Positions 4,801 to 11,179 of a DNA stretch of 64,000 nucleotides are shown piece after piece. Each line of letters starts with the position of its first letter. Position 1 is the first letter of the stretch. The position numbers and the translations under genes were made by a program. Under the pieces are notes generated by a model, which did not search any database, was not told the DNA's origin, and was given only the letters and a program-made list of their open reading frames with translations. Source of the stretch: Candidatus Dormibacteria bacterium (GTDB lineage Bacteria; Chloroflexota; Dormibacteria; Aeolococcales; Aeolococcaceae); the NCBI GenBank assembly GCA_050734155.1, contig JBOHUD010000064.1:138181-202180 (forward strand), read 5' to 3'.

Positions 4801-4804
<4 letters not shown>

Positions 4805-5691
4805 GGGGATGTGGCGGTGGTGACCGCGCCCGACGGCTGCGGAGGTGGAATGACCACAGCATTGTAGGAGTCGGGGCGGCGATCCTCGAGCAGGTGGTTG
4901 CGCGGGGTTCGCCGCCTTGTCGCGGCCACGCTCTCGAGGTCGACGTCGGCGACGAGCAGCGTCTCCTCCTCGGGGCCGGCGGGACCCTGGAGCGGCCAGC
5001 CGTCGGGGCCGACGATGAGCGAGCAGCCCAGGAACCGCACCTCGCGCTCCACCCCGACGCGGTCGGCGCAGGCCATCACCACGCCGCTCTGCGCCGCGCT
5101 CGCCATGGCCACGATGTCCCCTGTGCAGTAGCCGGCCTGGTCGTAGACCTGGCGCCGGAAGGAGGCGACCCAGTTGGTGGGCACCGCGATCACCTCGGCT
5201 CCGGCGAGGGCCAGGGCACGCACCGCCTCGGGGAACCAGAGGTCGAAGCAGATGACCATGCCCACCTTGCCGAAGGGCAGCTCCACCACCGGCAGCTCGC
5301 CGCCCGGCTCGAACCACGACTTCTCATCGTTGAAGAGGTGGAGCTTGCGGTAGGTGGCGAGGTGGCCCCGGGGACCGATCAGCACCGCGCTGTTGTGGCG
5401 CACCGCGCCGTCGCGTTCGTTGATACCGACCGCGCAGTGCATGCCCGATCCCGCGCACACCTCGGTGAGCGCACGCACGATGTCGCCGTGCGCGGGGTCC
5501 TGCGCGCTGGCCGCGGCCTCCGCCTCGGAGGCGAAGACGTAGCCGCTCGACGCCAGCTCGGGCAGCACCAGCAGGTCGACCCGCTCCGCGGCAGCGCGGC
5601 GCGCCCAGCCCACCGCCGCGGACTGGTTGCCGGCCACGTCGCCGACCCGGGGGGCGTACTGCGCCACCGCGATCCTCACCATCCGGCTCAT
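4801..5691 (-). CDS. Carbon-nitrogen hydrolase (nitrilase superfamily) protein
   Basis: 296 aa. MVRIAVAQYAP..., glutamate in LVLPELASSGY, catalytic Cys context MVICFDLWFPE, typical CN-hydrolase fold order. Confidence 0.8.
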
Positions 5692-5692
5692 C

Positions 5693-6853
5693 TCACACTC
5701 CGCTCACGTTGACGGGGACGCGAGGCACCCGCGCCGACACCGCGCAGAGCACCTCATAGGAGATTGTGCCGATCCGGGCGGCGACGGCGGCGGCGTCGAC
5801 TCGGTGGCCGCCCTCCTCCCCGATCAGGGTGACGGCGTCGCCGGCGTGCACCTCGCCGGCGTCGCTGACGTCGACCGCCAGCTGGTCCATGCTGATGCGT
5901 CCGATCATCGGGCAGACCGCGCCGCCGGCGATCACCACCCCGCGGTTGCCGTTGCGCCGGTCGACGCCGTCGGCGTAGCCCGCCGCGATCGTCGCCACCC
6001 GGGTGCGACGGGGCGCGATCCACTCCCTCCCGTAGCCGACGCTGTCGCCGGGGCCGACCTCCTTGACCAGGCTGACCAGCGCGCGCACGCGCAGGGCGGG
6101 ACGGACCTCGACGACTCCCTCGCAGCAGCTCGGGGGGTACCCGTAGAGGGCGATGCCCGGCCTGACCATGTCGTGGTGGGTGCCGGGCAGGCGCAGGGCC
6201 GCGGCGCTGTTGGCGCAGTGCACCAGCGCGCCGCCGAAGTCCTCGCGCAGCGCTGACAGCGCGGCCACGAAGCGCTCGTGCTGCGCGAGCGTGAACTCGG
6301 TCGAGGCGTCGTCGGCGGAGGCGAAGTGGGTGCACAGGCCGGCCACCTCGACGTCGCCGCGGGCGGCAAGCAGCGCGTCGCGCATCGCGGCTGTCTCCTC
6401 GGGACGGCTGCCCAGGCGTCCCATGCCGGTGTCGAGCTTCCAGTGCACCCGCAGCGGCCTGCCCTCCCGGCGAGACGCCTGGCGCGCGGCCCCCACCTGA
6501 GCCGGCGCGAACACCGCGACGTCGACGCCGTGCACCGTCGCCGCCGCCATCTCCGACGGCATCGTCCAGCCGGTGTTGAGGATCCGAGCCGTGACCCCGG
6601 CGCGGCGCAGCTCCACCGCCTCGGTGACCGACGACACCCCCAGCCAGGTCGCGCCTCCCGCGAGCGCGGCGGTGGCCGCATGGAGCGCGCCGTGGCCGTA
6701 GCCGTTGGCCTTGACCATGGCCATGACCGCGCACCCTTCGCCGGCGAGGCGGCAAAGCGCCGCCGCGTTGTCGCGCAGCGCCGCCATGTCCACCTCTGCC
6801 CACTTGGTCCCCGCCGCCGCGGCGGGGGTGTCGCCACCGGCGTCCAGGCTCAT
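5693..6853 (-). CDS. alr: Alanine racemase
   Basis: 386 aa. PLP-lysine motif AMVKANGYGHG, full N-terminal barrel and C-terminal domain characteristic of Alr. Confidence 0.9.
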   Translation of the reverse strand: MSLDAGGDTPAAAAGTKWAEVDMAALRDNAAALCRLAGEGCAVMAMVKANGYGHGALHAATAALAGGATWLGVSSVTEAVELRRAGVTARILNTGWTMPSEMAAATVHGVDVAVFAPAQVGAARQASRREGRPLRVHWKLDTGMGRLGSRPEETAAMRDALLAARGDVEVAGLCTHFASADDASTEFTLAQHERFVAALSALREDFGGALVHCANSAAALRLPGTHHDMVRPGIALYGYPPSCCEGVVEVRPALRVRALVSLVKEVGPGDSVGYGREWIAPRRTRVATIAAGYADGVDRRNGNRGVVIAGGAVCPMIGRISMDQLAVDVSDAGEVHAGDAVTLIGEEGGHRVDAAAVAARIGTISYEVLCAVSARVPRVPVNVSGV

Positions 6854-6865
6854 CGCCGCCCTGAC

Positions 6866-7570
6866 CTACGGCGCAGGGCGCGGGCGCAGCAGCACGATCG
6901 GGGTCTGCTCCTCGCCCTGCCCGAGCGGATTGTCGAGCACCGCCAGGCGCACATCCGCCGCCGGGACGGGAACCCCGCGGCTGGCGCCGAGCACCTCGAC
7001 GTTGATGTTGTTGGCGTCGACGATCACGACCGGCCAGCCGGTGGCGTCCTCGATCGCCTGGGCGTCGCGGGGCGGGTCCTCGGGGCCCAGCATGGCGAAC
7101 TCGTTGAAGGGCCGGACGGTGTGCGGGTTGAATCCGTCGATCTCGGAGACGCGGTGGCCCGCCAGCCGATAGAAGTCTCCGTGCCGTCCCAGCAGCCGGG
7201 TGACCCCGCCGACCGACATGGCCATGGCCATGCGCGCCCAGCCCGCGCGCATGATCGCCACCTGCATCTTGGCGGGATCCGAGAAGCCGACGTCATCCTC
7301 GAGCTTGGTCACCCCCCTGACCAGCAGCCGGGCGAGCAGCCCCGGTCGCACCAGCGAGCGATGAATGACGCGGCCCTGGGTGATGGCCACGAACTTCTCG
7401 GAGAGGACGAGGAAGTCGCCGGGTTGGAAGTGCGGCGCGACGTAGGTCCGCAGCACCTCGACGAGCGGCTCCTTGACGTGGACCAGGTGGGTGCGCACCG
7501 CGGCGCGCTCGTAGGTGCGACCGCCCACCATCCTCGCCTCCTGCCATGCCACCGGCGCGTTCGCGGTCAT
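6866..7570 (-). CDS. CofE-like protein (F420-0:gamma-glutamyl ligase superfamily, PF01996-like), divergent
   Basis: Real start MTANAPVAW at 7570 (ATG), overlapping the asnB stop as ATGA. Motifs GDFLVLSEKFVAITQGR (cf. CofE DVLVVxSTxISKAEGR) and VVIVDANNINVE (cf. VIITDTNGR). The ORF-track ORF is extended upstream artefactually. Confidence 0.55.
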   Translation of the reverse strand: MTANAPVAWQEARMVGGRTYERAAVRTHLVHVKEPLVEVLRTYVAPHFQPGDFLVLSEKFVAITQGRVIHRSLVRPGLLARLLVRGVTKLEDDVGFSDPAKMQVAIMRAGWARMAMAMSVGGVTRLLGRHGDFYRLAGHRVSEIDGFNPHTVRPFNEFAMLGPEDPPRDAQAIEDATGWPVVIVDANNINVEVLGASRGVPVPAADVRLAVLDNPLGQGEEQTPIVLLRPRPAP

Positions 7571-9402
7571 GCGGCCAGCGCGACCGGCCGGTCCATGTAG
7601 CGCTGCATCCACAGCTCGGTGACCATGGTGCGCCAGAAGATCAGGGGGTCCCCCGGCGCCCCGGCCAGCCAGGCGTCGAAGTCCCTGACCAGGCGATCGT
7701 TGTCGTAGATGCCGCGGCCGCGGCACGCCGGCGAGTCGAAGATGGCTCGCATCTCGGGGGCCCGGCCCCGGATCCAGGTGACCTCGGGATTGGTGAAGCC
7801 GATCTTGCTCCGGCGCAGCCGGTTCTTCTCGGGAATGCGTCCCCGCATGGCGCGGCGGTACACGGCCCGGTTCCAGCCGCCATCGATCTTCTGGTCGATG
7901 GGCAGCCGGAAGATGAACTCCACCAGCTCGTGGTCCAGGAAGGGCACGCGAGCCTCGATGGAGAACGCCATCGAGTTCTTGTCCTCATAGCGCAGCAGGT
8001 TGGGCGTCGAGTAGGCGAGCACGTCGTTGGCCAGGCGGGCGTTGAGGTTGCGATCGGGGGTGAAGCTGACCGAGTCGAGGCTCCCGTCCTGGTCGGCCAG
8101 GAATGGCCGCATGCTCAGCAGGCCGCCCTGGCGCGGCAGTCGCGAGCGCATGGCCTCGGCGAAGAAGCCGCGATACAGGTCGAGACCTCTGAGCAGCTCG
8201 CGCGCCCCCGCCAACCAGTGGCGCTGGTCGCGGGCAGAGCTCAGGTAGGCCCTGAAGTAGGGTATGTACCCGGCCAGGAGTTCGTCGCCGCCGTTGCCCG
8301 AGAGCATCACCTTGACGTGCTCGTGGGCGACGCGGTACACGCAGTAGTACGCGTAGGGCGCGGAGGCGATCGTCGGCTCCTCCTGGAACCAGACCCAATC
8401 GGTCATCTCTGTCCAGAACTCGTCGAGGTCGGGGTATGCATAGTGAGGGACACTGTTGGTGCGGGTCTCGACCTCATGGATGTACTCGCTCTCGTCGATG
8501 CTCTGGCCGGGGAAGAGTGCCGAGAAGGTGTGCAGCCTGCCCTCGGTGTGCAGGTCGGCTCCGCGCTGCATGAGGTCGGCCATGGTGCACACCACCCCGC
8601 TGGAGTCGAGCCCTCCCGAGAGCGGCACCCCCACCGGCGCGTCGGAGAGCAGGTGCCGGGCCACCACCTTCTCGAACAGGGCGGCGAACTCGGCCGCGTG
8701 GTCGGCGTCACTGCGCCCGCTCGAGAACTCCAGGTTGATCTCTGGATTCCAGTAGCGCTCGATGCTGCTGATGCCGTCGGGACCGATCGTCATGGTGTGG
8801 GCGGGGCGGAGGCGCTTGATGCCGGCGAAGAAGGTGTCCTCAGTGGCGTCGTGGACCCGGAAGAGGAGGAACCGCTGCAGCACCGCCAGGTCCTCGCGGC
8901 GCGGGACGGCCGGGTCCTGCAGGATCGCCTTGATCTCCGAGGCGAAGATGACCCGGCTGCCCAGCTGCGCGTAGTAGAGAGGCTTGATGCCCAGCCGATC
9001 GCGGGCCAGGAACAGCTCGCCTCTGGTGGAGTCCCAGAGCGCAAACGCGAACATGCCGGTGAGGTGGGTGACCACACCATGCCCCCACTCCTCGTAGCCG
9101 CGAAGGATAACCTCGGTATCGGAGTGGTCGGTGGCGAACCGATGCCCCCTGGCCTCCAGCTCGACCTTCAACTCGGGGGCGTTGTAGATCTCGCCATTGC
9201 AGATCAGGGAGAGCCGGTGGTCGTCGGTGCGCAGCGGCTGGTTGCCGCCGTCGATGTCGACGATGGCGAGCCGCCGCACGCCCATGGAGACGCGCTCGTT
9301 GACCTCGACGCCGAATCCGTCGGGTCCGCGATGGACAATGGAGTCGAGCATCCGAGTGAGCAGCTCCCGATCGACACCGGTGAAGCCGGCGATGCCGCAC
9401 AT
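7567..9402 (-). CDS. asnB: Asparagine synthetase (glutamine-hydrolysing), AsnB family
   Basis: 611 aa. N-terminal class-II glutamine amidotransferase Cys2 (MCGIAGF), PP-loop synthetase domain (SGGLDSS). Confidence 0.88.
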   Translation of the reverse strand: MCGIAGFTGVDRELLTRMLDSIVHRGPDGFGVEVNERVSMGVRRLAIVDIDGGNQPLRTDDHRLSLICNGEIYNAPELKVELEARGHRFATDHSDTEVILRGYEEWGHGVVTHLTGMFAFALWDSTRGELFLARDRLGIKPLYYAQLGSRVIFASEIKAILQDPAVPRREDLAVLQRFLLFRVHDATEDTFFAGIKRLRPAHTMTIGPDGISSIERYWNPEINLEFSSGRSDADHAAEFAALFEKVVARHLLSDAPVGVPLSGGLDSSGVVCTMADLMQRGADLHTEGRLHTFSALFPGQSIDESEYIHEVETRTNSVPHYAYPDLDEFWTEMTDWVWFQEEPTIASAPYAYYCVYRVAHEHVKVMLSGNGGDELLAGYIPYFRAYLSSARDQRHWLAGARELLRGLDLYRGFFAEAMRSRLPRQGGLLSMRPFLADQDGSLDSVSFTPDRNLNARLANDVLAYSTPNLLRYEDKNSMAFSIEARVPFLDHELVEFIFRLPIDQKIDGGWNRAVYRRAMRGRIPEKNRLRRSKIGFTNPEVTWIRGRAPEMRAIFDSPACRGRGIYDNDRLVRDFDAWLAGAPGDPLIFWRTMVTELWMQRYMDRPVALAA

Positions 9403-9460
9403 GCGCTGGTCAGTCTAGGCGGGGCAGACGGGCTCGCGGCCCACCGGCGGCGCCGCCCGA

Positions 9461-11179
9461 CTAGAAGTCGAGGTCGTCGTCCATCCCCATGCCACCCATG
9501 CCACCCATGCCACCCATGCCGCCCATGCCACCCATGCCGCCGCCCATGCCACCCATGCCGCCGCCGTGGGCGTGGCCGTGGCCGGCAGCAGCCTCATCGT
9601 CCTCGGGCTCGGGGGCGTCGGCGATGAGCGCCTCGGTGGTGAGCATCATGGCGGCGATCGAGGCCGCGTGGGAGAGCGCGCTGACCACCACCTTGGTGGG
9701 ATCGATGACGCCGCGCTGGACGAGGTTGGCGTAGTCGCCGGTGCGCGCGTCGAAACCCTCGTCACCGCTCGCCTGGGCCACGCGATTGGCCACGGTGGGG
9801 CCGTCGTGGCCGCCGTTCTGGGCGATGATCCGCAGCGGCTCCTGGAGTGCTCTGCGCACGATCCGCGCCCCGGTGGCGGCGTCGTCGTGGAGCTCGAGGT
9901 CGTCGATGGAGTCCACGGCGCGCAGGAGCGCGACCCCGCCCCCGGCCACGTAGCCGTCCTCGAGCGCGGCCCGGACGGCGGCGAGGGCGTCCTCGACGCG
10001 GGACTTGCGCTCCTTCATCTCCACCTCGGTGGCGGCGCCGACCTTGACCACGGCGATGCCGCCGACCAGCCGCGCCAGCCGCTCCTGGAGCTTCTCGCGA
10101 TCCCATTCCGACTCGGTCTCCTCGATCTCGCGGCGGAGATCCTCGGCGCGCGCGTCGACGGCGCCGCGGTCGCCACCGCCCCTGAGGATGGTTGTGTCCT
10201 CTTTGGTGATCACGATCCGCTCGGCGCTGCCCAGCTGGTCGAGACGCACCCCATCGAGGCGCAGCCCAACCTTCTCGCTGATCAGCGTGGCACCGGTCAG
10301 CACCGCGATGTCGGCAAGGATGGCGGTGCGCCGATCGCCGAATGCGGGCGCCTTGACCGCGACCGCGGTGAAGGAGCCGCGGAGGCGGTTGACGACCAGG
10401 GTTGCCAGCGCCTCCGCCTGCACATCCTCGGCGACGATGAGCAGCGGCCGGCTCGAGCGCACCACCAGCTCGAGGGCGGGAAGCAGGTCGGCGACGGCGG
10501 TGATCTTGGCATCGGTGACCAGAACCGCCGCCTTCTCCAGGATCGCCTCCATCGTCTTCTGGTCGGTCACCAGGTAGGGCGACACGTAGCCGCGATCGAA
10601 CTGCATGCCCTCGACGACCTCGACCTCGGTCTCGATGCCGTTGCCCTCCTCGACGGTCACCACGCCCTCGCGTCCGACGCGCTCGAAGGCCTCGGCGATC
10701 ATGGTCCCGATGACCTCGTCACCCGAGCTGATGGTGGCGACGCGCTCCAGGTCCTCATTGCCGTCGACGGGGTGCGACCGGCTGCGCACCGCGGCCACCA
10801 CCGCCTCGGTGGCGGCGAGCATGCCGCGGCGCAGCTCGTTCGGGGACGCCCCGGCGGCGAGGTTGCGCAGCCCCTCGTTGATGAGCGCGCGGCCGAGGAC
10901 CGCGGCGGTGGTGGTGCCATCGCCGGCGATGTCGTTGGTCTTGACAGCGATCTCCTTGAGAAGCTGCGCACCCATGTTCTCGAAGTGGTCCTTGAACTCC
11001 AGGTCGCGGGCGATGGTGACGCCGTCGTTGCTGATCAGCGGAGACCCGAAGCGCTTGTCGATGACCACGTTGCGCCCTCTCGGGCCGAGCGTCACCGACA
11101 CCGCGTCGGCGACAGAGTCGACGCCGCGATGGAGCGCCTGGCGCGCCTCATTGCTGAAACGAAGTTGCTTGGCAGTCAT
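9461..11179 (-). CDS. groEL: Chaperonin GroEL (Cpn60) with C-terminal GGM repeat tail
   Basis: 572 aa. AAVLGRALINEGL, GDGTTTA, and C-terminus ...GGGMGGMGGGMGGMGGMGGMGGMGGMGMDDDLDF. Confidence 0.97.
   Translation of the reverse strand: MTAKQLRFSNEARQALHRGVDSVADAVSVTLGPRGRNVVIDKRFGSPLISNDGVTIARDLEFKDHFENMGAQLLKEIAVKTNDIAGDGTTTAAVLGRALINEGLRNLAAGASPNELRRGMLAATEAVVAAVRSRSHPVDGNEDLERVATISSGDEVIGTMIAEAFERVGREGVVTVEEGNGIETEVEVVEGMQFDRGYVSPYLVTDQKTMEAILEKAAVLVTDAKITAVADLLPALELVVRSSRPLLIVAEDVQAEALATLVVNRLRGSFTAVAVKAPAFGDRRTAILADIAVLTGATLISEKVGLRLDGVRLDQLGSAERIVITKEDTTILRGGGDRGAVDARAEDLRREIEETESEWDREKLQERLARLVGGIAVVKVGAATEVEMKERKSRVEDALAAVRAALEDGYVAGGGVALLRAVDSIDDLELHDDAATGARIVRRALQEPLRIIAQNGGHDGPTVANRVAQASGDEGFDARTGDYANLVQRGVIDPTKVVVSALSHAASIAAMMLTTEALIADAPEPEDDEAAAGHGHAHGGGMGGMGGGMGGMGGMGGMGGMGGMGMDDDLDF
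9484..9565. repeat. 9-bp tandem coding repeat (catgccacc-like) encoding the GroEL GGM tail
   Basis: Direct reading: ccatgccacccatgccacccatgccacccatgccgcccatgcc...; lies inside the groEL 3' end, not a CRISPR. Confidence 0.9.

What the first reader, a model, noticed from the sequence alone, without database searches (positions are those of the whole stretch)
6866..9402. An AsnB-type amidotransferase is translationally coupled (ATGA) to a divergent CofE-like F420-ligase-superfamily protein
The asnB stop and the CofE-like start share ATGA at 7567-7570, implying co-translation.

CofE-family enzymes add gamma-glutamyl residues to a carboxylate. AsnB-family enzymes adenylate a carboxylate and amidate it using glutamine.

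The pair could form a two-step ligate-then-amidate tailoring module for a metabolite or peptide. This is a hypothesis, not a described system. The CofE-like protein is divergent: its middle (NAGIDASN-region) motif is not recognisable and only a VIVDANN block aligns to the CofE C-terminal ITDTNGR block.
Basis: partly seen in the sequence, partly recalled or inferred. Interest (0 to 1): 0.6.

Follow-up and report, generated by a model that had tools for sequence, protein, structure and literature searches.

The report
Conserved AsnB plus CofE-like enzyme pair
Two overlapping genes, one for a glutamine-using amidotransferase and one for a distant relative of the F420 glutamate ligase CofE, form an uncharacterised enzyme pair that several bacterial phyla keep together, sometimes fused, and that probably tailors a carboxylate on a peptide-like, possibly cell-wall, molecule rather than making asparagine or coenzyme F420.

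Summary
On the minus strand, an AsnB-family gene (7567-9402) ends in an ATGA that starts a 234-aa gene (6866-7570).

- **Conservation of the pair.** In 67 of 80 related genomic loci (Dormibacterota, Chloroflexota, Actinomycetota, Patescibacteria) the asnB orthologue lies directly upstream, usually with the same 4-nt overlap. Full-length AsnB-CofE-like fusion proteins also exist.
- **The AsnB partner.** It keeps the catalytic Cys, the glutamine site and the PP-loop, but lacks the aspartate-recognition residues (E348 to N, D384 to N, no TTIR arginine). NAGGN AsnO and dapdiamide DdaH show similar changes, and both act after a ligase.
- **Not F420.** No F420 genes lie nearby.
- **Target.** More distant family members are fused to MurF or to a CwlD-like amidase. 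A paralogue occurs in cyanobacteria and in non-angiosperm green plants and algae. This hints at peptidoglycan.

Best reading: a ligase-plus-amidotransferase tailoring module with an unknown substrate. I found no description of it, so it counts as a new variant of known enzyme kinds.

The parts
7567..9402 (-). asnB-like gene, 611 aa: class-II (Ntn) glutamine amidotransferase domain plus PP-loop ATP-pyrophosphatase (Asn_synthase) domain
   Evidence: Pfam GATase_7 1.8e-45 and Asn_synthase 4.2e-67. TIGR01536 scores 426.8 bits against a cutoff of 267, but the AsnB equivalog NF006949 scores 254.6 against 499. Orthologues 54-93% identical lie upstream of the CofE-like gene in 67 of 80 loci.
6866..7570 (-). 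CofE-like gene, 234 aa: CofE (COG1478/PF01996) superfamily member of an uncharacterised subfamily
7567..7570 (-). ATGA stop/start overlap joining the two genes (translational coupling)
   Evidence: Read directly. The same (A/G)TGA junction is present in at least 43 of 70 related loci.
9397..9399 (-). Codon for Cys2, the N-terminal nucleophile of the glutaminase domain (MCGI)
   Evidence: Translation. Invariant in 42 partner orthologues.
8599..8619 (-). PP-loop SGGLDSS (residues 262-268) of the AsnB-like synthetase domain
   Evidence: Aligns with E. coli AsnB S234-S240. Invariant in partner orthologues.
8281..8301 (-). SGNGGDE motif (residues 368-374). Asn370 replaces the Glu (E. coli E348, human E364) needed for aspartate-dependent activity.
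   Evidence: Alignments to 1ct9 and 6gq3. SGNGGDE is at least 95% conserved in 42 orthologues. E364A and E364Q human ASNS are inactive (PMC6748925). The position holds Q or D in AsnO, DdaH and EPS-type paralogues.
7370..7420 (-). CofE-like N-terminal block GDFLVLSEKFVAITQGR (residues 51-67), which aligns with CofE GDVLVVCSTVISKAEGR
   Evidence: PDB profile search, 2phn E 1.5e-5; hhalign.
7127..7150 (-). VSEIDGFN (residues 141-148), which aligns with CofE NAGIDASN. Asp145 aligns with CofE Asp109.
   Evidence: hhalign. D145 is at least 90% conserved across the 70-sequence family alignment A2.
7007..7027 (-). VIVDANN (residues 182-188), which aligns with CofE IITDTNG. Asp185 aligns with CofE Asp150. 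The GRxxRxG segment that follows in CofE is absent.
   Evidence: hmmsearch and hhalign. D185 and N187 are at least 90% conserved.
6884..6934 (-). C-terminal block DNPLGQGEEQTPIVLLR (residues 213-229), which aligns with CofE NLLMGEGGDGIPAVVVR
   Evidence: hhalign. N214, P215, T223 and P224 are invariant in A2.
5693..6853 (-). alr (alanine racemase), 12 nt downstream on the same strand. Probably co-transcribed; membership of the module is not established.
   Evidence: Pfam and TIGR00492. This synteny is seen only in Dormibacterota-type loci and is part of the tsaE-tsaD-groES-groEL-alr block.
9461..11179 (-). groEL, 58 nt upstream on the same strand (context only)
   Evidence: Pfam Cpn60_TCP1. 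No terminator-like site was found on the minus strand between groEL and asnB.

Best explanation
The two genes encode a dedicated two-enzyme module that works on one carboxylate-bearing substrate.

**The small protein.** It is a cytoplasmic CofE-fold enzyme. By analogy with CofE and FolC2, it uses a nucleoside triphosphate and divalent metal to activate a carboxylate as an acyl phosphate, then joins an amine (an amino acid) to it.

**The large protein.** It is an active AsnB-family amidotransferase. It hydrolyses glutamine at Cys2, adenylates a carboxylate at its PP-loop site and converts it to an amide. Its acceptor pocket is not built for free aspartate. The acceptor is therefore something else, most simply the product (or the substrate) of the CofE-like ligase. 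NAGGN synthesis (Ngg then AsnO) and dapdiamide synthesis (DdaG then DdaH) work this way.

**Coupling.** The two proteins are made in coupled fashion and probably form a complex.

**Target.** The module has nothing to do with coenzyme F420 or asparagine supply. The favoured target is a peptide carboxylate of a cell-envelope precursor, namely a peptidoglycan stem peptide.

**Shown:** gene structure, folds, homology, conserved catalytic residues, conservation of the pair, fusions.
**Inferred:** ligase chemistry, order of steps, complex formation, nature of the substrate.
For: **Pairing**
- An asnB orthologue lies directly upstream on the same strand in 67 of 80 loci from Dormibacterota, Chloroflexota, Actinomycetota and Patescibacteria. 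Overlapping stop/start codons are conserved.
- Seven full-length AsnB-CofE-like fusion proteins, plus five with partial AsnB parts, occur among the 150 best family representatives.

**CofE-like enzyme**
- Homology: hhalign Prob 98.9.
- The aspartates aligned with CofE D109 and D150 are at least 90% conserved in the family.
- The CofE mechanism goes through an acyl phosphate (PMC8498797; PMC10861534).

**AsnB partner**
- MCGI, the glutamine-site residues, SGGLDSS and the RRSKIGF lysine are all conserved.
- E348 is replaced by N, D384 by N, and the TTIR arginine is missing. These residues bind the alpha-amino group of aspartyl-AMP in human ASNS.
- The same position holds Q in NAGGN AsnO and D in DdaH, both of which follow a ligase.

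**Not F420**
- No cofC, cofD, cofH, npdG or fbiB in 1.37 Mb of loci plus the window.
- All curated CofE and FolC2 models score below cutoff.

**Envelope hints**
- MurF-CofE-like fusion (321.6 bits against a cutoff of 288.6). CwlD-like amidase-CofE-like fusion (a 25-member cluster seen on many contigs) next to a SpoVB-like flippase.
- A Glycos_transf_4 gene, a polysaccharide deacetylase or a LysM protein nearby in Patescibacteria loci.
- A paralogue in cyanobacteria lies near YceG. It also occurs in bryophytes, lycophytes, ferns, a conifer and streptophyte algae, with no angiosperm among the 120 best hits. Most angiosperms lack the full plastid peptidoglycan gene set (PMC10784329).
Against: - No substrate, product or activity is known for any member.
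- The envelope hints come mostly from paralogous branches (about 30-40% identity), not from the AsnB-coupled branch itself.
- The MurF fusion is a single 2.9-kb metagenomic contig and could be a gene-calling merge.
- Other fusion partners are heterogeneous: PlsY, CDP-alcohol phosphatidyltransferase, adenylate kinase, HD, TPR, a PepV-like dipeptidase.
- The alr adjacency is lineage-specific and part of an older syntenic block.
- Around the pair, neighbours differ between phyla and are mostly housekeeping genes.
- The CofE segment that follows D150 (GRxxRxG) and the hairpin after it are missing, and a family-specific insert of roughly 40 residues (about 90-140) replaces part of the site. The second substrate need not be glutamate, and ligase activity itself is an assumption.
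- Eight Patescibacteria loci carry the CofE-like gene with no asnB within 10 kb.
- Some fused AsnB domains have lost Cys1 and the PP-loop, so the CofE-like protein can work without amidation.
Confidence: 0.45

Rival explanations
1. Split amidotransferase, like MurT/GatD. The CofE-like protein activates the substrate carboxylate as an acyl phosphate. The AsnB-like protein serves mainly as glutaminase and ammonia channel. The pair therefore makes a single amide, and no amino acid is added.
For: - CofE chemistry is mechanistically parallel to Mur ligases, and MurT is a Mur-ligase homologue paired with a glutaminase (abstract of PMC5871853).
- Tight coupling and fusions fit a complex.
- The AsnB acceptor pocket is altered.
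- The glutamate-side segment of CofE (GRxxRxG) is missing.
Against: - The PP-loop SGGLDSS, D373/E374 and the ATP-site lysine are invariant in the partner AsnB. That would be unnecessary if it only delivered ammonia.
- An N, Q or D at the E348 position also occurs in AsnO and DdaH, which are annotated as working amidotransferases that adenylate their own substrates.
Confidence: 0.15
2. Synthesis of a small soluble peptide amide (a compatible solute or signal), analogous to the NAGGN trio. The CofE-like ligase makes a dipeptide and AsnB amidates its free carboxylate. No cell-wall link.
For: - Full-length similarity of the AsnB partner to the NAGGN amidotransferase model TIGR03104 (340 bits, positions 1-601).
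- The E348 position holds an amide residue as in AsnO.
- Family members pair with a GNAT protein in cyanobacteria and are fused to a PepV-like dipeptidase. This echoes the NAGGN set of GNAT-ligase, amidotransferase and peptidase (the composition of that set is from my own knowledge).
Against: - TIGR03104 scores far below its cutoff (340 against 570).
- No Ngg-type GNAT/ATP-grasp gene lies next to the pair in the contexts I annotated with Pfam.
- The pair sits in housekeeping regions and is 53-68% identical between phyla, including small-genome Patescibacteria. That is unusual for an accessory osmolyte pathway.
- The MurF and amidase fusions and the plant distribution are unexplained.
Confidence: 0.17
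3. The public annotation is right. The small protein is coenzyme F420-0:L-glutamate ligase (CofE), or a FolC2-type folate glutamyl ligase. The AsnB is an ordinary asparagine synthetase, and the adjacency is incidental.
For: - Some database records call close homologues 'coenzyme F420-0:L-glutamate ligase' (P0030, P0095).
- CofE fold and homology.
- TIGR01536 passes its cutoff.
- CofE-family FolC2 replaces FolC in Chlamydia (PMC1971073).
Against: - PF01996 scores below its gathering score. TIGR01916 and NF009809 are not reported, and TIGR04132 scores 17 bits against 350.
- The CofE segment that holds G153-C155, which faces the F420 ring, has no counterpart.
- No F420 genes in 80 loci plus the window.
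- The family is frequent in Patescibacteria and present in plants. I know of no F420 synthesis in either group; this rests on my own knowledge.
- The AsnB lacks the aspartate-recognition residues.
- Adjacency, overlap and fusions are conserved across phyla.
Confidence: 0.04
4. The CofE-like protein is not a ligase. It is a non-catalytic or differently catalytic partner (substrate-binding or regulatory subunit, or a hydrolase) of the AsnB enzyme.
For: - About a third of the CofE core after D150 is deleted or replaced.
- In other branches the domain is fused after an Amidase_3 domain or after an N-terminal membrane anchor. One member is annotated 'exported'. If those domains lie outside the cell, they cannot use NTPs.
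Against: - More than 60 invariant positions in the AsnB-coupled branch, including many polar residues and both aspartates aligned with CofE D109 and D150, point to a working active site.
- The window protein has no signal peptide or membrane segment.
Confidence: 0.12

Closest known systems
CofE / FbiB N-terminal domain (F420-0:L-glutamate ligase, PF01996, COG1478; PDB 2PHN, 7ULD)
   Same: - Profile-level homology over residues 28-231.
- Shared blocks: GD..V.S.K..(A/S)..(Q/E)GR, IDxxN, L.P.DP, (T/V)D(T/A)N, G(Q/E)G...P.V..R.
- The aspartates aligned with D109 and D150 are conserved.
   Different: - About 17-22% identity.
- Below the curated cutoffs.
- Lacks GRxxRxG and the following hairpin.
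- Has a family-specific helical insert, roughly residues 90-140.
- No F420 genes nearby.
- Occurs in Patescibacteria and plants.
- Obligate AsnB partner.
FolC2 (Chlamydia CT611, TIGR04132), the CofE-family folylpolyglutamate/dihydrofolate synthase
   Same: A COG1478 member recruited to a non-F420 carboxylate in an organism without F420 (PMC1971073).
   Different: TIGR04132 matches only residues 24-73 at 17 bits against a cutoff of 350. The neighbours I annotated include no folate gene. No AsnB partner is mentioned for FolC2 in the passages I read.
NAGGN pathway: Ngg (GNAT + ATP-grasp ligase) followed by AsnO (TIGR03104)
   Same: Logic of ligase, then AsnB-family amidation of the new peptide's carboxylate. 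AsnO also has an amide residue (Q) at the E348 position. Full-length similarity to the AsnB partner.
   Different: The ligase has a different fold (ATP-grasp, not CofE). TIGR03104 is below cutoff (340 against 570). About 31% identity to the Streptomyces AsnO.
Dapdiamide DdaG/DdaH (Pantoea agglomerans)
   Same: An AsnB homologue encoded directly after a ligase gene. It amidates the ligase product (fumaroyl-DAP to fumaramoyl-DAP; this step is from my own knowledge). It has a non-Glu residue (D) at the E348 position.
   Different: DdaG is annotated as a fumarate-diaminopropanoate ligase and is not a CofE-family protein (my own knowledge). It belongs to an antibiotic gene cluster on a plasmid, not a pan-phylum housekeeping pair. 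About 30% identity.
Peptidoglycan amidotransferases: AsnB/LtsA (mDAP epsilon-carboxyl) and MurT/GatD (D-iGlu alpha-carboxyl)
   Same: AsnB-family enzymes that lack Asp-binding residues and amidate stem-peptide carboxylates in Gram-positive bacteria (PMC8554201). MurT/GatD is a two-protein complex of a carboxylate-activating ligase homologue and a glutaminase.
   Different: I found no description of LtsA/AsnB acting with a CofE-like partner. MurT and GatD have unrelated folds. No muropeptide data exist for any organism that carries this pair.

Membership tests
CofE (F420-0:L-glutamate ligase, PF01996 / TIGR01916 / NF009809) | CofE fold (intertwined alpha/beta 'butterfly' protomer) | tested here: met
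   [not shown]
CofE (F420-0:L-glutamate ligase, PF01996 / TIGR01916 / NF009809) | Score above the curated family cutoffs | tested here: not met
   PF01996 scores 23.6 bits against a gathering score of 25, covering residues 25-104 only. No NCBIfam CofE model is reported at E up to 0.1.
CofE (F420-0:L-glutamate ligase, PF01996 / TIGR01916 / NF009809) | Conserved active-site aspartates (AfCofE D109 and D150; their role as Mn ligands is from my memory of Nocek et al. 2007) | tested here: met
   hhalign maps D145 to D109 and D185 to D150. Both are at least 90% conserved in the 70-sequence family alignment.
CofE (F420-0:L-glutamate ligase, PF01996 / TIGR01916 / NF009809) | Segment after D150 (T151, GRxxRxG, G153-C155 facing the F420 ring) and the following hairpin | tested here: not met
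   TDTNGRCFRRG aligns with VDANNI----N. About 20 further residues of CofE have no counterpart. The role of G153-C155 is from PMC10861534.
CofE (F420-0:L-glutamate ligase, PF01996 / TIGR01916 / NF009809) | [quoted passage not shown] | tested here: not met
   tblastn with cofC, cofD, cofH, npdG and fbiB found nothing in 80 loci plus the window (1.37 Mb). True cofE genes fetched for comparison sit next to npdG, cofC, cofD or cofH in four of six cases, and one more next to an F420-dependent oxidoreductase.
CofE (F420-0:L-glutamate ligase, PF01996 / TIGR01916 / NF009809) | GTP-dependent addition of L-glutamate to F420-0 | not testable with these tools
   Needs an enzyme assay.
FolC2 (TIGR04132) | Score above the family cutoff; clustering with folate genes | tested here: not met
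   17.4 bits against 350. The neighbours annotated with Pfam include no folate gene; the other loci were not searched for one.
Asparagine synthetase B (glutamine-hydrolysing; TIGR01536 / NF006949) | N-terminal Cys nucleophile and glutamine-binding residues (R, N-G-E, D) | tested here: met
   MCGI; R43/R44, N69-G70-E71 and D95 are conserved in 42 orthologues. Residue roles are from PMC6748925.
Asparagine synthetase B (glutamine-hydrolysing; TIGR01536 / NF006949) | PP-loop SGGxDS and the ATP-site lysine | tested here: met
   SGGLDSS (262-268) aligns with E. coli 234-240. RRSKIGF is conserved.
Asparagine synthetase B (glutamine-hydrolysing; TIGR01536 / NF006949) | Family model cutoffs | tested here: inconclusive
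   The broad model TIGR01536 passes (426.8 against 267.1). The AsnB equivalog NF006949 fails (254.6 against 499).
Asparagine synthetase B (glutamine-hydrolysing; TIGR01536 / NF006949) | Aspartate / beta-aspartyl-AMP recognition residues (E. coli E348, D351, D384, R387 and the TTIR arginine; human E364, D367, D400, R403) | tested here: not met
   E348 is replaced by N370 (invariant), D384 by N468 (variable), and no Arg or Lys occurs in EEPTIASAPYAYY. D373 and R471 are kept. E364A and E364Q human ASNS are inactive.
mDAP-amidating AsnB / LtsA | Lacks the Asp-binding D and R and carries an extra loop in the substrate region (as described in PMC8554201) | tested here: inconclusive
   The D is lost and the R is retained. 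An insertion of about 60-65 residues relative to E. coli lies between residues ~385 and ~467. No LtsA or B. subtilis AsnB sequence was available for comparison.
mDAP-amidating AsnB / LtsA | Amidation of stem-peptide mDAP | not testable with these tools
   Needs muropeptide analysis.
NAGGN amidotransferase AsnO (TIGR03104) | Score above cutoff and an adjacent Ngg ligase | tested here: not met
   340.2 bits against 570.1. The neighbour is a CofE-like gene, not a GNAT/ATP-grasp gene.
Known anti-phage defence systems (PADLOC) | Any model match | tested here: not met
   No hit for either protein at E up to 0.01.

The most novel reading that the evidence does not exclude
The CofE-like family is an ancient, unrecognised class of peptide-carboxylate ligases of the bacterial cell envelope. 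With its dedicated AsnB partner it installs an 'amino acid plus amide' substituent on peptidoglycan precursors in Dormibacterota, Chloroflexota, Actinomycetota and Patescibacteria. Glycine amide or D-alanine amide on the D-Glu alpha-carboxyl are examples of such substituents; they have been known chemically for decades, and I know of no enzyme assigned to them. A paralogue survives in cyanobacteria and in the plastids of plants that still build peptidoglycan. The F420 and folate ligases CofE and FolC2 would then be later offshoots of this family.
Probability: 0.2. Interest if true: 0.8.

Novelty: new variant of a known kind. Interest (0 to 1): 0.6.

Why it matters
- **Annotation.** Public annotation calls these proteins 'F420-0:gamma-glutamyl ligase' and 'asparagine synthase'. 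Both names are probably wrong for this pair, and the error spreads through many metagenome-assembled genomes.
- **Conservation.** The pair is highly conserved (53-68% identity between phyla). It is present in small-genome Patescibacteria and is sometimes fused, so it likely performs a core function that has no name yet.
- **If the target is peptidoglycan.** It would add a new enzyme class to cell-wall tailoring, a process that affects lysozyme and antibiotic susceptibility. It would also give a new marker for plastid peptidoglycan in plants.
- **CofE origins.** The result widens the known range of the CofE fold. A recent review calls the evolutionary origin of CofE unclear (PMC8498797).

Tried and rejected
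1. **First AF2 model.** It used 26 close homologues and was poor in the middle (pLDDT 71.6). I replaced it with a 70-sequence alignment (pLDDT 95.1).
2. **PDB sequence search with the narrow profile.** It found nothing relevant. The broader profile reached CofE.
3. **One of the three large homology searches was wasted.** I used a 60-aa CofE fragment and it returned only three short proteins. I obtained CofE references from plasmid records instead. The Natrinema copy was frameshifted and I dropped it.
4. **afdb50 fold library** was unavailable.
5. **My own crude ORF caller on high-GC loci** produced antisense shadow ORFs. Clustering of neighbours found no third gene conserved beyond the pair.
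6. **The alr neighbour as functional evidence.** I down-weighted it because it belongs to the tsaE-tsaD-groES-groEL-alr block.
7. **E348 to N as a sign of a dead synthetase domain.** I rejected this because AsnO, DdaH and EPS-type paralogues carry Q or D there.
8. **Defence system.** No PADLOC match.
9. **Promoter and terminator scan.** Uninformative in this high-GC DNA.
10. **Literature searches.** Searches for CofE homologues combined with asparagine synthetase, peptidoglycan, CPR or Marchantia found no description of this pair.

Full report
**Observation**

On the minus strand, a 611-aa ORF (7567-9402) ends with TGA at 7569-7567. A 234-aa ORF begins with ATG at 7570-7568 and ends at 6866, so the four bases ATGA are shared. 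The mechanical ORF extends to a GTG at 7726. Homologues begin at the position of the ATG.

The window has about 72% G+C. The closest relatives of both proteins (85-93% identity) come from Candidatus Dormibacterota metagenome-assembled genomes, so the window very probably comes from that phylum.

Gene order on the minus strand is thiL-like, tsaE, GNAT/rimI-like, tsaD, dtxR-like, ZIP, groES, groEL, asnB-like, CofE-like, alr, CN-hydrolase, pcrA/uvrD, ligA.

**What the two proteins are: the large protein**

- It has GATase_7 and Asn_synthase domains (E 1.8e-45 and 4.2e-67).
- It passes the broad NCBIfam model TIGR01536 (426.8 bits against 267.1). It fails the AsnB equivalog NF006949 (254.6 against 499), the NAGGN amidotransferase model (340 against 570) and the EPS-type model (366 against 817).
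- Its best solved relative is the hydroxyamidotransferase TsnB9 (7ylz, 1e-56), followed by E. coli AsnB (1ct9, 3.9e-38).

**What the two proteins are: the small protein**

- It matches PF01996 only over its first third and below threshold (23.6 against 25 bits).
- A profile of 70 family members reaches CofE structures by sequence (2phn, E 1.5e-5).
- A local profile-profile comparison with an alignment of eight CofE/FbiB-type sequences gives probability 98.9%, E 1.5e-17, over residues 28-231. Six of the eight are cofE or fbiB genes, five of them next to F420-related genes.
- With that 70-sequence alignment AlphaFold gives a confident model (pLDDT 95.1, pTM 0.90).

**Residue map of the small protein against CofE**

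AfCofE numbering is read.

| Window protein | AfCofE |
|---|---|
| GD51-52 ... SEK57-59 ... QGR65-67 | GD33-34 ... CST39-41 (ASK in the eight-sequence reference alignment A3) ... EGR47-49 |
| VSEIDGFN 141-148 | NAGIDASN 105-112 (D145 = D109) |
| LGPEDP | LLPPLDP |
| VIVDANN 182-188 | IITDTNG 147-153 (D185 = D150) |
| LGQGEEQTPIVLLR | MGEGGDGIPAVVVR |

- D52, D145, D185 and N187 are at least 90% conserved across the whole family.
- The GRxxRxG stretch after D150 and the following hairpin have no counterpart.
- A family-specific helical insert, roughly residues 90-140, carries its own invariant residues (K101, M102, Q103, R113, R129, G131, F133, R135).
- My recollection that D109 and D150 are Mn ligands comes from Nocek et al. 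2007 and was not checked here.

**Conservation of the pair**

- A scan of one genome per species returned 162 relatives, of which 80 loci were kept.
- tblastn shows an asnB orthologue (54-93% identical to the window's) on the same strand directly upstream in 67 loci, and within 2 kb in two more. Two loci are cut at a contig end. One more has a gap in the asnB match.
- Eight loci, all Patescibacteria-type, have no asnB within 10 kb.
- The taxa are Dormibacterota, Chloroflexota, Acidimicrobiia and other Actinomycetota (including the cultured Phycicoccus elongatus Lp2), and several Patescibacteria lineages.
- The junction is an (A/G)TGA overlap in at least 43 of 70 loci. It is an 8-nt or 1-nt overlap in several others, and a short gap in most low-GC Patescibacteria loci.
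- Outside Dormibacterota the flanking genes differ and are mostly housekeeping: rpsB-tsf-pyrH-frr-uppS-cdsA, ileS-lspA-rluD...dnaE, gatCAB. No third gene is conserved with the pair.
- An exhaustive profile search found 1145 cluster representatives. Among the best 150, twelve carry AsnB sequence fused upstream of the CofE-like domain, seven of them full length.
- All AsnB homologues on plasmids are at most 35% identical to the window's protein, so the partner is a distinct AsnB subfamily.

**Is the AsnB partner an asparagine synthetase?**

- In 42 orthologues these are invariant: the Cys nucleophile, the glutamine-site residues, the PP-loop SGGLDSS, D373/E374 and the RRSKIGF lysine.
- The glutamate of SGEGSDE (E. 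coli E348, human E364) is an invariant Asn (SGNGGDE). In fused relatives it is Gln.
- The aspartate equivalent to E. coli D384 / human D400 is a variable Asn.
- The TTIR arginine region reads EEPTIASAPYAYY, with no basic residue.
- mDAP-amidating AsnB enzymes are also described as lacking the Asp-binding D and R (PMC8554201).
- A small panel shows what the E348 position holds in other enzymes:

| Residue at E348 position | Enzymes |
|---|---|
| Q | NAGGN amidotransferase AsnO; an EPS-linked paralogue |
| D | dapdiamide enzyme DdaH (encoded right after the ligase gene ddaG); an AsnB homologue from an Isosphaeraceae plasmid flanked by glycosyltransferase genes |
| E | E. coli AsnB, B. cereus and Subdoligranulum AsnB homologues, TsnB9 |

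The substitution therefore marks amidotransferases with acceptors other than free aspartate. It does not mark dead enzymes.

**Not F420, not folate**

- No cofC, cofD, cofH, npdG or fbiB homologue lies in the 80 loci or the window.
- True cofE genes fetched for comparison sit beside such genes in four of six cases, and one more sits beside an F420-dependent oxidoreductase.
- The family is common in Patescibacteria and is present in plants.
- The FolC2 model matches at 17 bits against 350.

**Clues to the target**

- Among more distant family members (about 30-40% identity), the domain is fused to several partners:
  - MurF (321.6 bits against 288.6; one contig);
  - a CwlD-like Amidase_3 domain (six representatives, one of them a 25-member cluster on many contigs, next to a SpoVB-like flippase gene);
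  - a PepV/Sapep dipeptidase;
  - PlsY, a CDP-alcohol phosphatidyltransferase, TPR repeats, an HD domain and adenylate kinase;
  - in 13 representatives, an unknown domain of about 110-235 aa that begins with a membrane helix in the bacterial members I read.
- That last architecture is the cyanobacterial form. It is followed in two distant cyanobacteria by a 400-460-aa GNAT protein, RuvX, DUF1292 and YceG.
- It also occurs with transit-peptide-like N-termini in liverworts, mosses, a lycophyte, ferns, the conifer Cryptomeria, streptophyte algae and Tetraselmis. No angiosperm appears among the 120 best hits.
- Most angiosperms lack the complete plastid peptidoglycan gene set, which bryophytes and gymnosperms keep (PMC10784329).
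- In Patescibacteria loci without asnB, the gene is followed by ksgA, a small membrane protein, a Glycos_transf_4 gene, PEGA and DUF4012, or by a polysaccharide deacetylase.
- These hints lean towards the cell envelope and peptidoglycan. They are indirect and come mostly from paralogous branches.
- The alr gene downstream in the window is weak evidence. Its proximity to tsaE/tsaD/groESL recalls the alr-tsaE-tsaB-rimI-tsaD-groES-groEL1 block of mycobacteria (my own knowledge; window order).

**Mechanism**

- The best-supported reading is a two-enzyme module acting on one substrate.
- The first enzyme is a CofE-type NTP-dependent ligase. The acyl-phosphate chemistry of CofE is described.
- The second is an AsnB-type amidotransferase that amidates a non-aspartate carboxylate. 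NAGGN (Ngg then AsnO) and dapdiamide (DdaG then DdaH) are precedents.
- Tight translational coupling and fusions suggest a complex.
- Some fused AsnB domains have lost Cys1 and the PP-loop. This argues for a structural interaction and shows that the ligase can act without amidation.
- The main rival is a MurT/GatD-like split amidotransferase, in which the AsnB protein only supplies ammonia. The strictly conserved PP-loop argues against it.
- I cannot decide between a peptidoglycan precursor and a soluble peptide amide as the target.

**Novelty**

- Searches of the paper library found descriptions of CofE, of FolC2 and of AsnB/LtsA in peptidoglycan amidation. None describes this pair or this CofE-like subfamily.
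- Both proteins belong to known superfamilies, so this is a new variant of known kinds, not a new category.
- It is of moderate to high interest because it is widespread, strongly conserved and probably misannotated (some records name it an F420 ligase), and because it may touch cell-wall chemistry and the origin of CofE.

Noticed in passing
L089 6001-7170, L091 6001-7200; proteins P0244, P0256, P0293-P0323: A paralogous branch carries an N-terminal membrane helix, an unknown domain of about 150 aa and the CofE-like domain. It occurs in cyanobacteria and, with transit-peptide-like N-termini, in liverworts, mosses, a lycophyte, ferns, Cryptomeria, streptophyte algae and Tetraselmis. No angiosperm appears among the 120 best hits. 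This resembles the distribution of complete plastid peptidoglycan gene sets.
   Followed up: partly
L089 7216-8427; L091 7357-8751: In two distant cyanobacteria the CofE-like gene is followed by a 400-460-aa protein with a GNAT domain (only a weak RimI-like match in NCBIfam), then RuvX, DUF1292 and YceG. On the other side lie divergently oriented Caroten_synth and Glycos_transf_2 genes. The partner here is a GNAT protein, not AsnB.
   Followed up: partly
L096 7001-8620 (P0278) and 8859-10469: A recurrent 539-aa protein from Bacillota-type contigs fuses a CwlD-like N-acetylmuramoyl-L-alanine amidase domain to the CofE-like domain. It sits next to a SpoVB-like flippase gene. If the amidase part lies outside the cell, an NTP-dependent role for the fused domain would be hard to explain.
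   Followed up: partly
proteins P0175, P0210, P0211, P0222: In several AsnB-CofE-like fusion proteins the AsnB part has lost the Cys nucleophile (MSGI, MGGI) and the PP-loop. It looks like a pseudoenzyme domain kept for structural reasons.
   Followed up: partly
L093 5196-10798: In a Patescibacteria-type contig (its gene order matches the Roizmanbacteria locus L024) the asnB/CofE-like pair lies directly upstream of gatC-gatA-gatB, the tRNA-dependent amidotransferase, followed by dnaE. dnaE also lies a few genes downstream of the pair in actinobacterial loci (L022, L094).
   Followed up: no
L086 2968-3771: Bacillus thuringiensis plasmids carry a gene annotated as coenzyme F420-0:L-glutamate ligase. 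It lies between a shikimate dehydrogenase, a TIM-barrel protein and a UDP-glucose/GDP-mannose dehydrogenase, with no F420 gene in the 6 kb shown. This looks like another CofE-family member with a non-F420 role.
   Followed up: no
L100 1-1974: The Pantoea agglomerans plasmid hit is the dapdiamide cluster. ddaG (fumarate-diaminopropanoate ligase) is followed directly by an asnB homologue, a ready precedent for 'ligase then AsnB-type amidation'.
   Followed up: partly
window 4801-5691 and 5693-6853: A carbon-nitrogen hydrolase (nitrilase-superfamily) gene follows alr after a single base, and pcrA/uvrD follows closely. The groEL-asnB-CofE-like-alr-CN-hydrolase order is kept across most Dormibacterota loci. 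Whether the hydrolase relates to the pair is unknown.
   Followed up: no
window 7546-9627 (+) and 6278-7600 (+): Long ORFs of 693 and 440 aa lie antisense to the two genes. They are the usual shadow ORFs of high-GC DNA. The domain matches are all on the minus strand.
   Followed up: partly
window 9461-9570: The GroEL C-terminus carries an extended run of Gly-Gly-Met / Gly-Met repeats.
   Followed up: no
L070, L076, L078: ORFs in these Patescibacteria/Peribacteria loci are heavily fragmented under translation table 11, including the CofE-like gene. This fits TGA being read as a sense codon (code 25).
   Followed up: no
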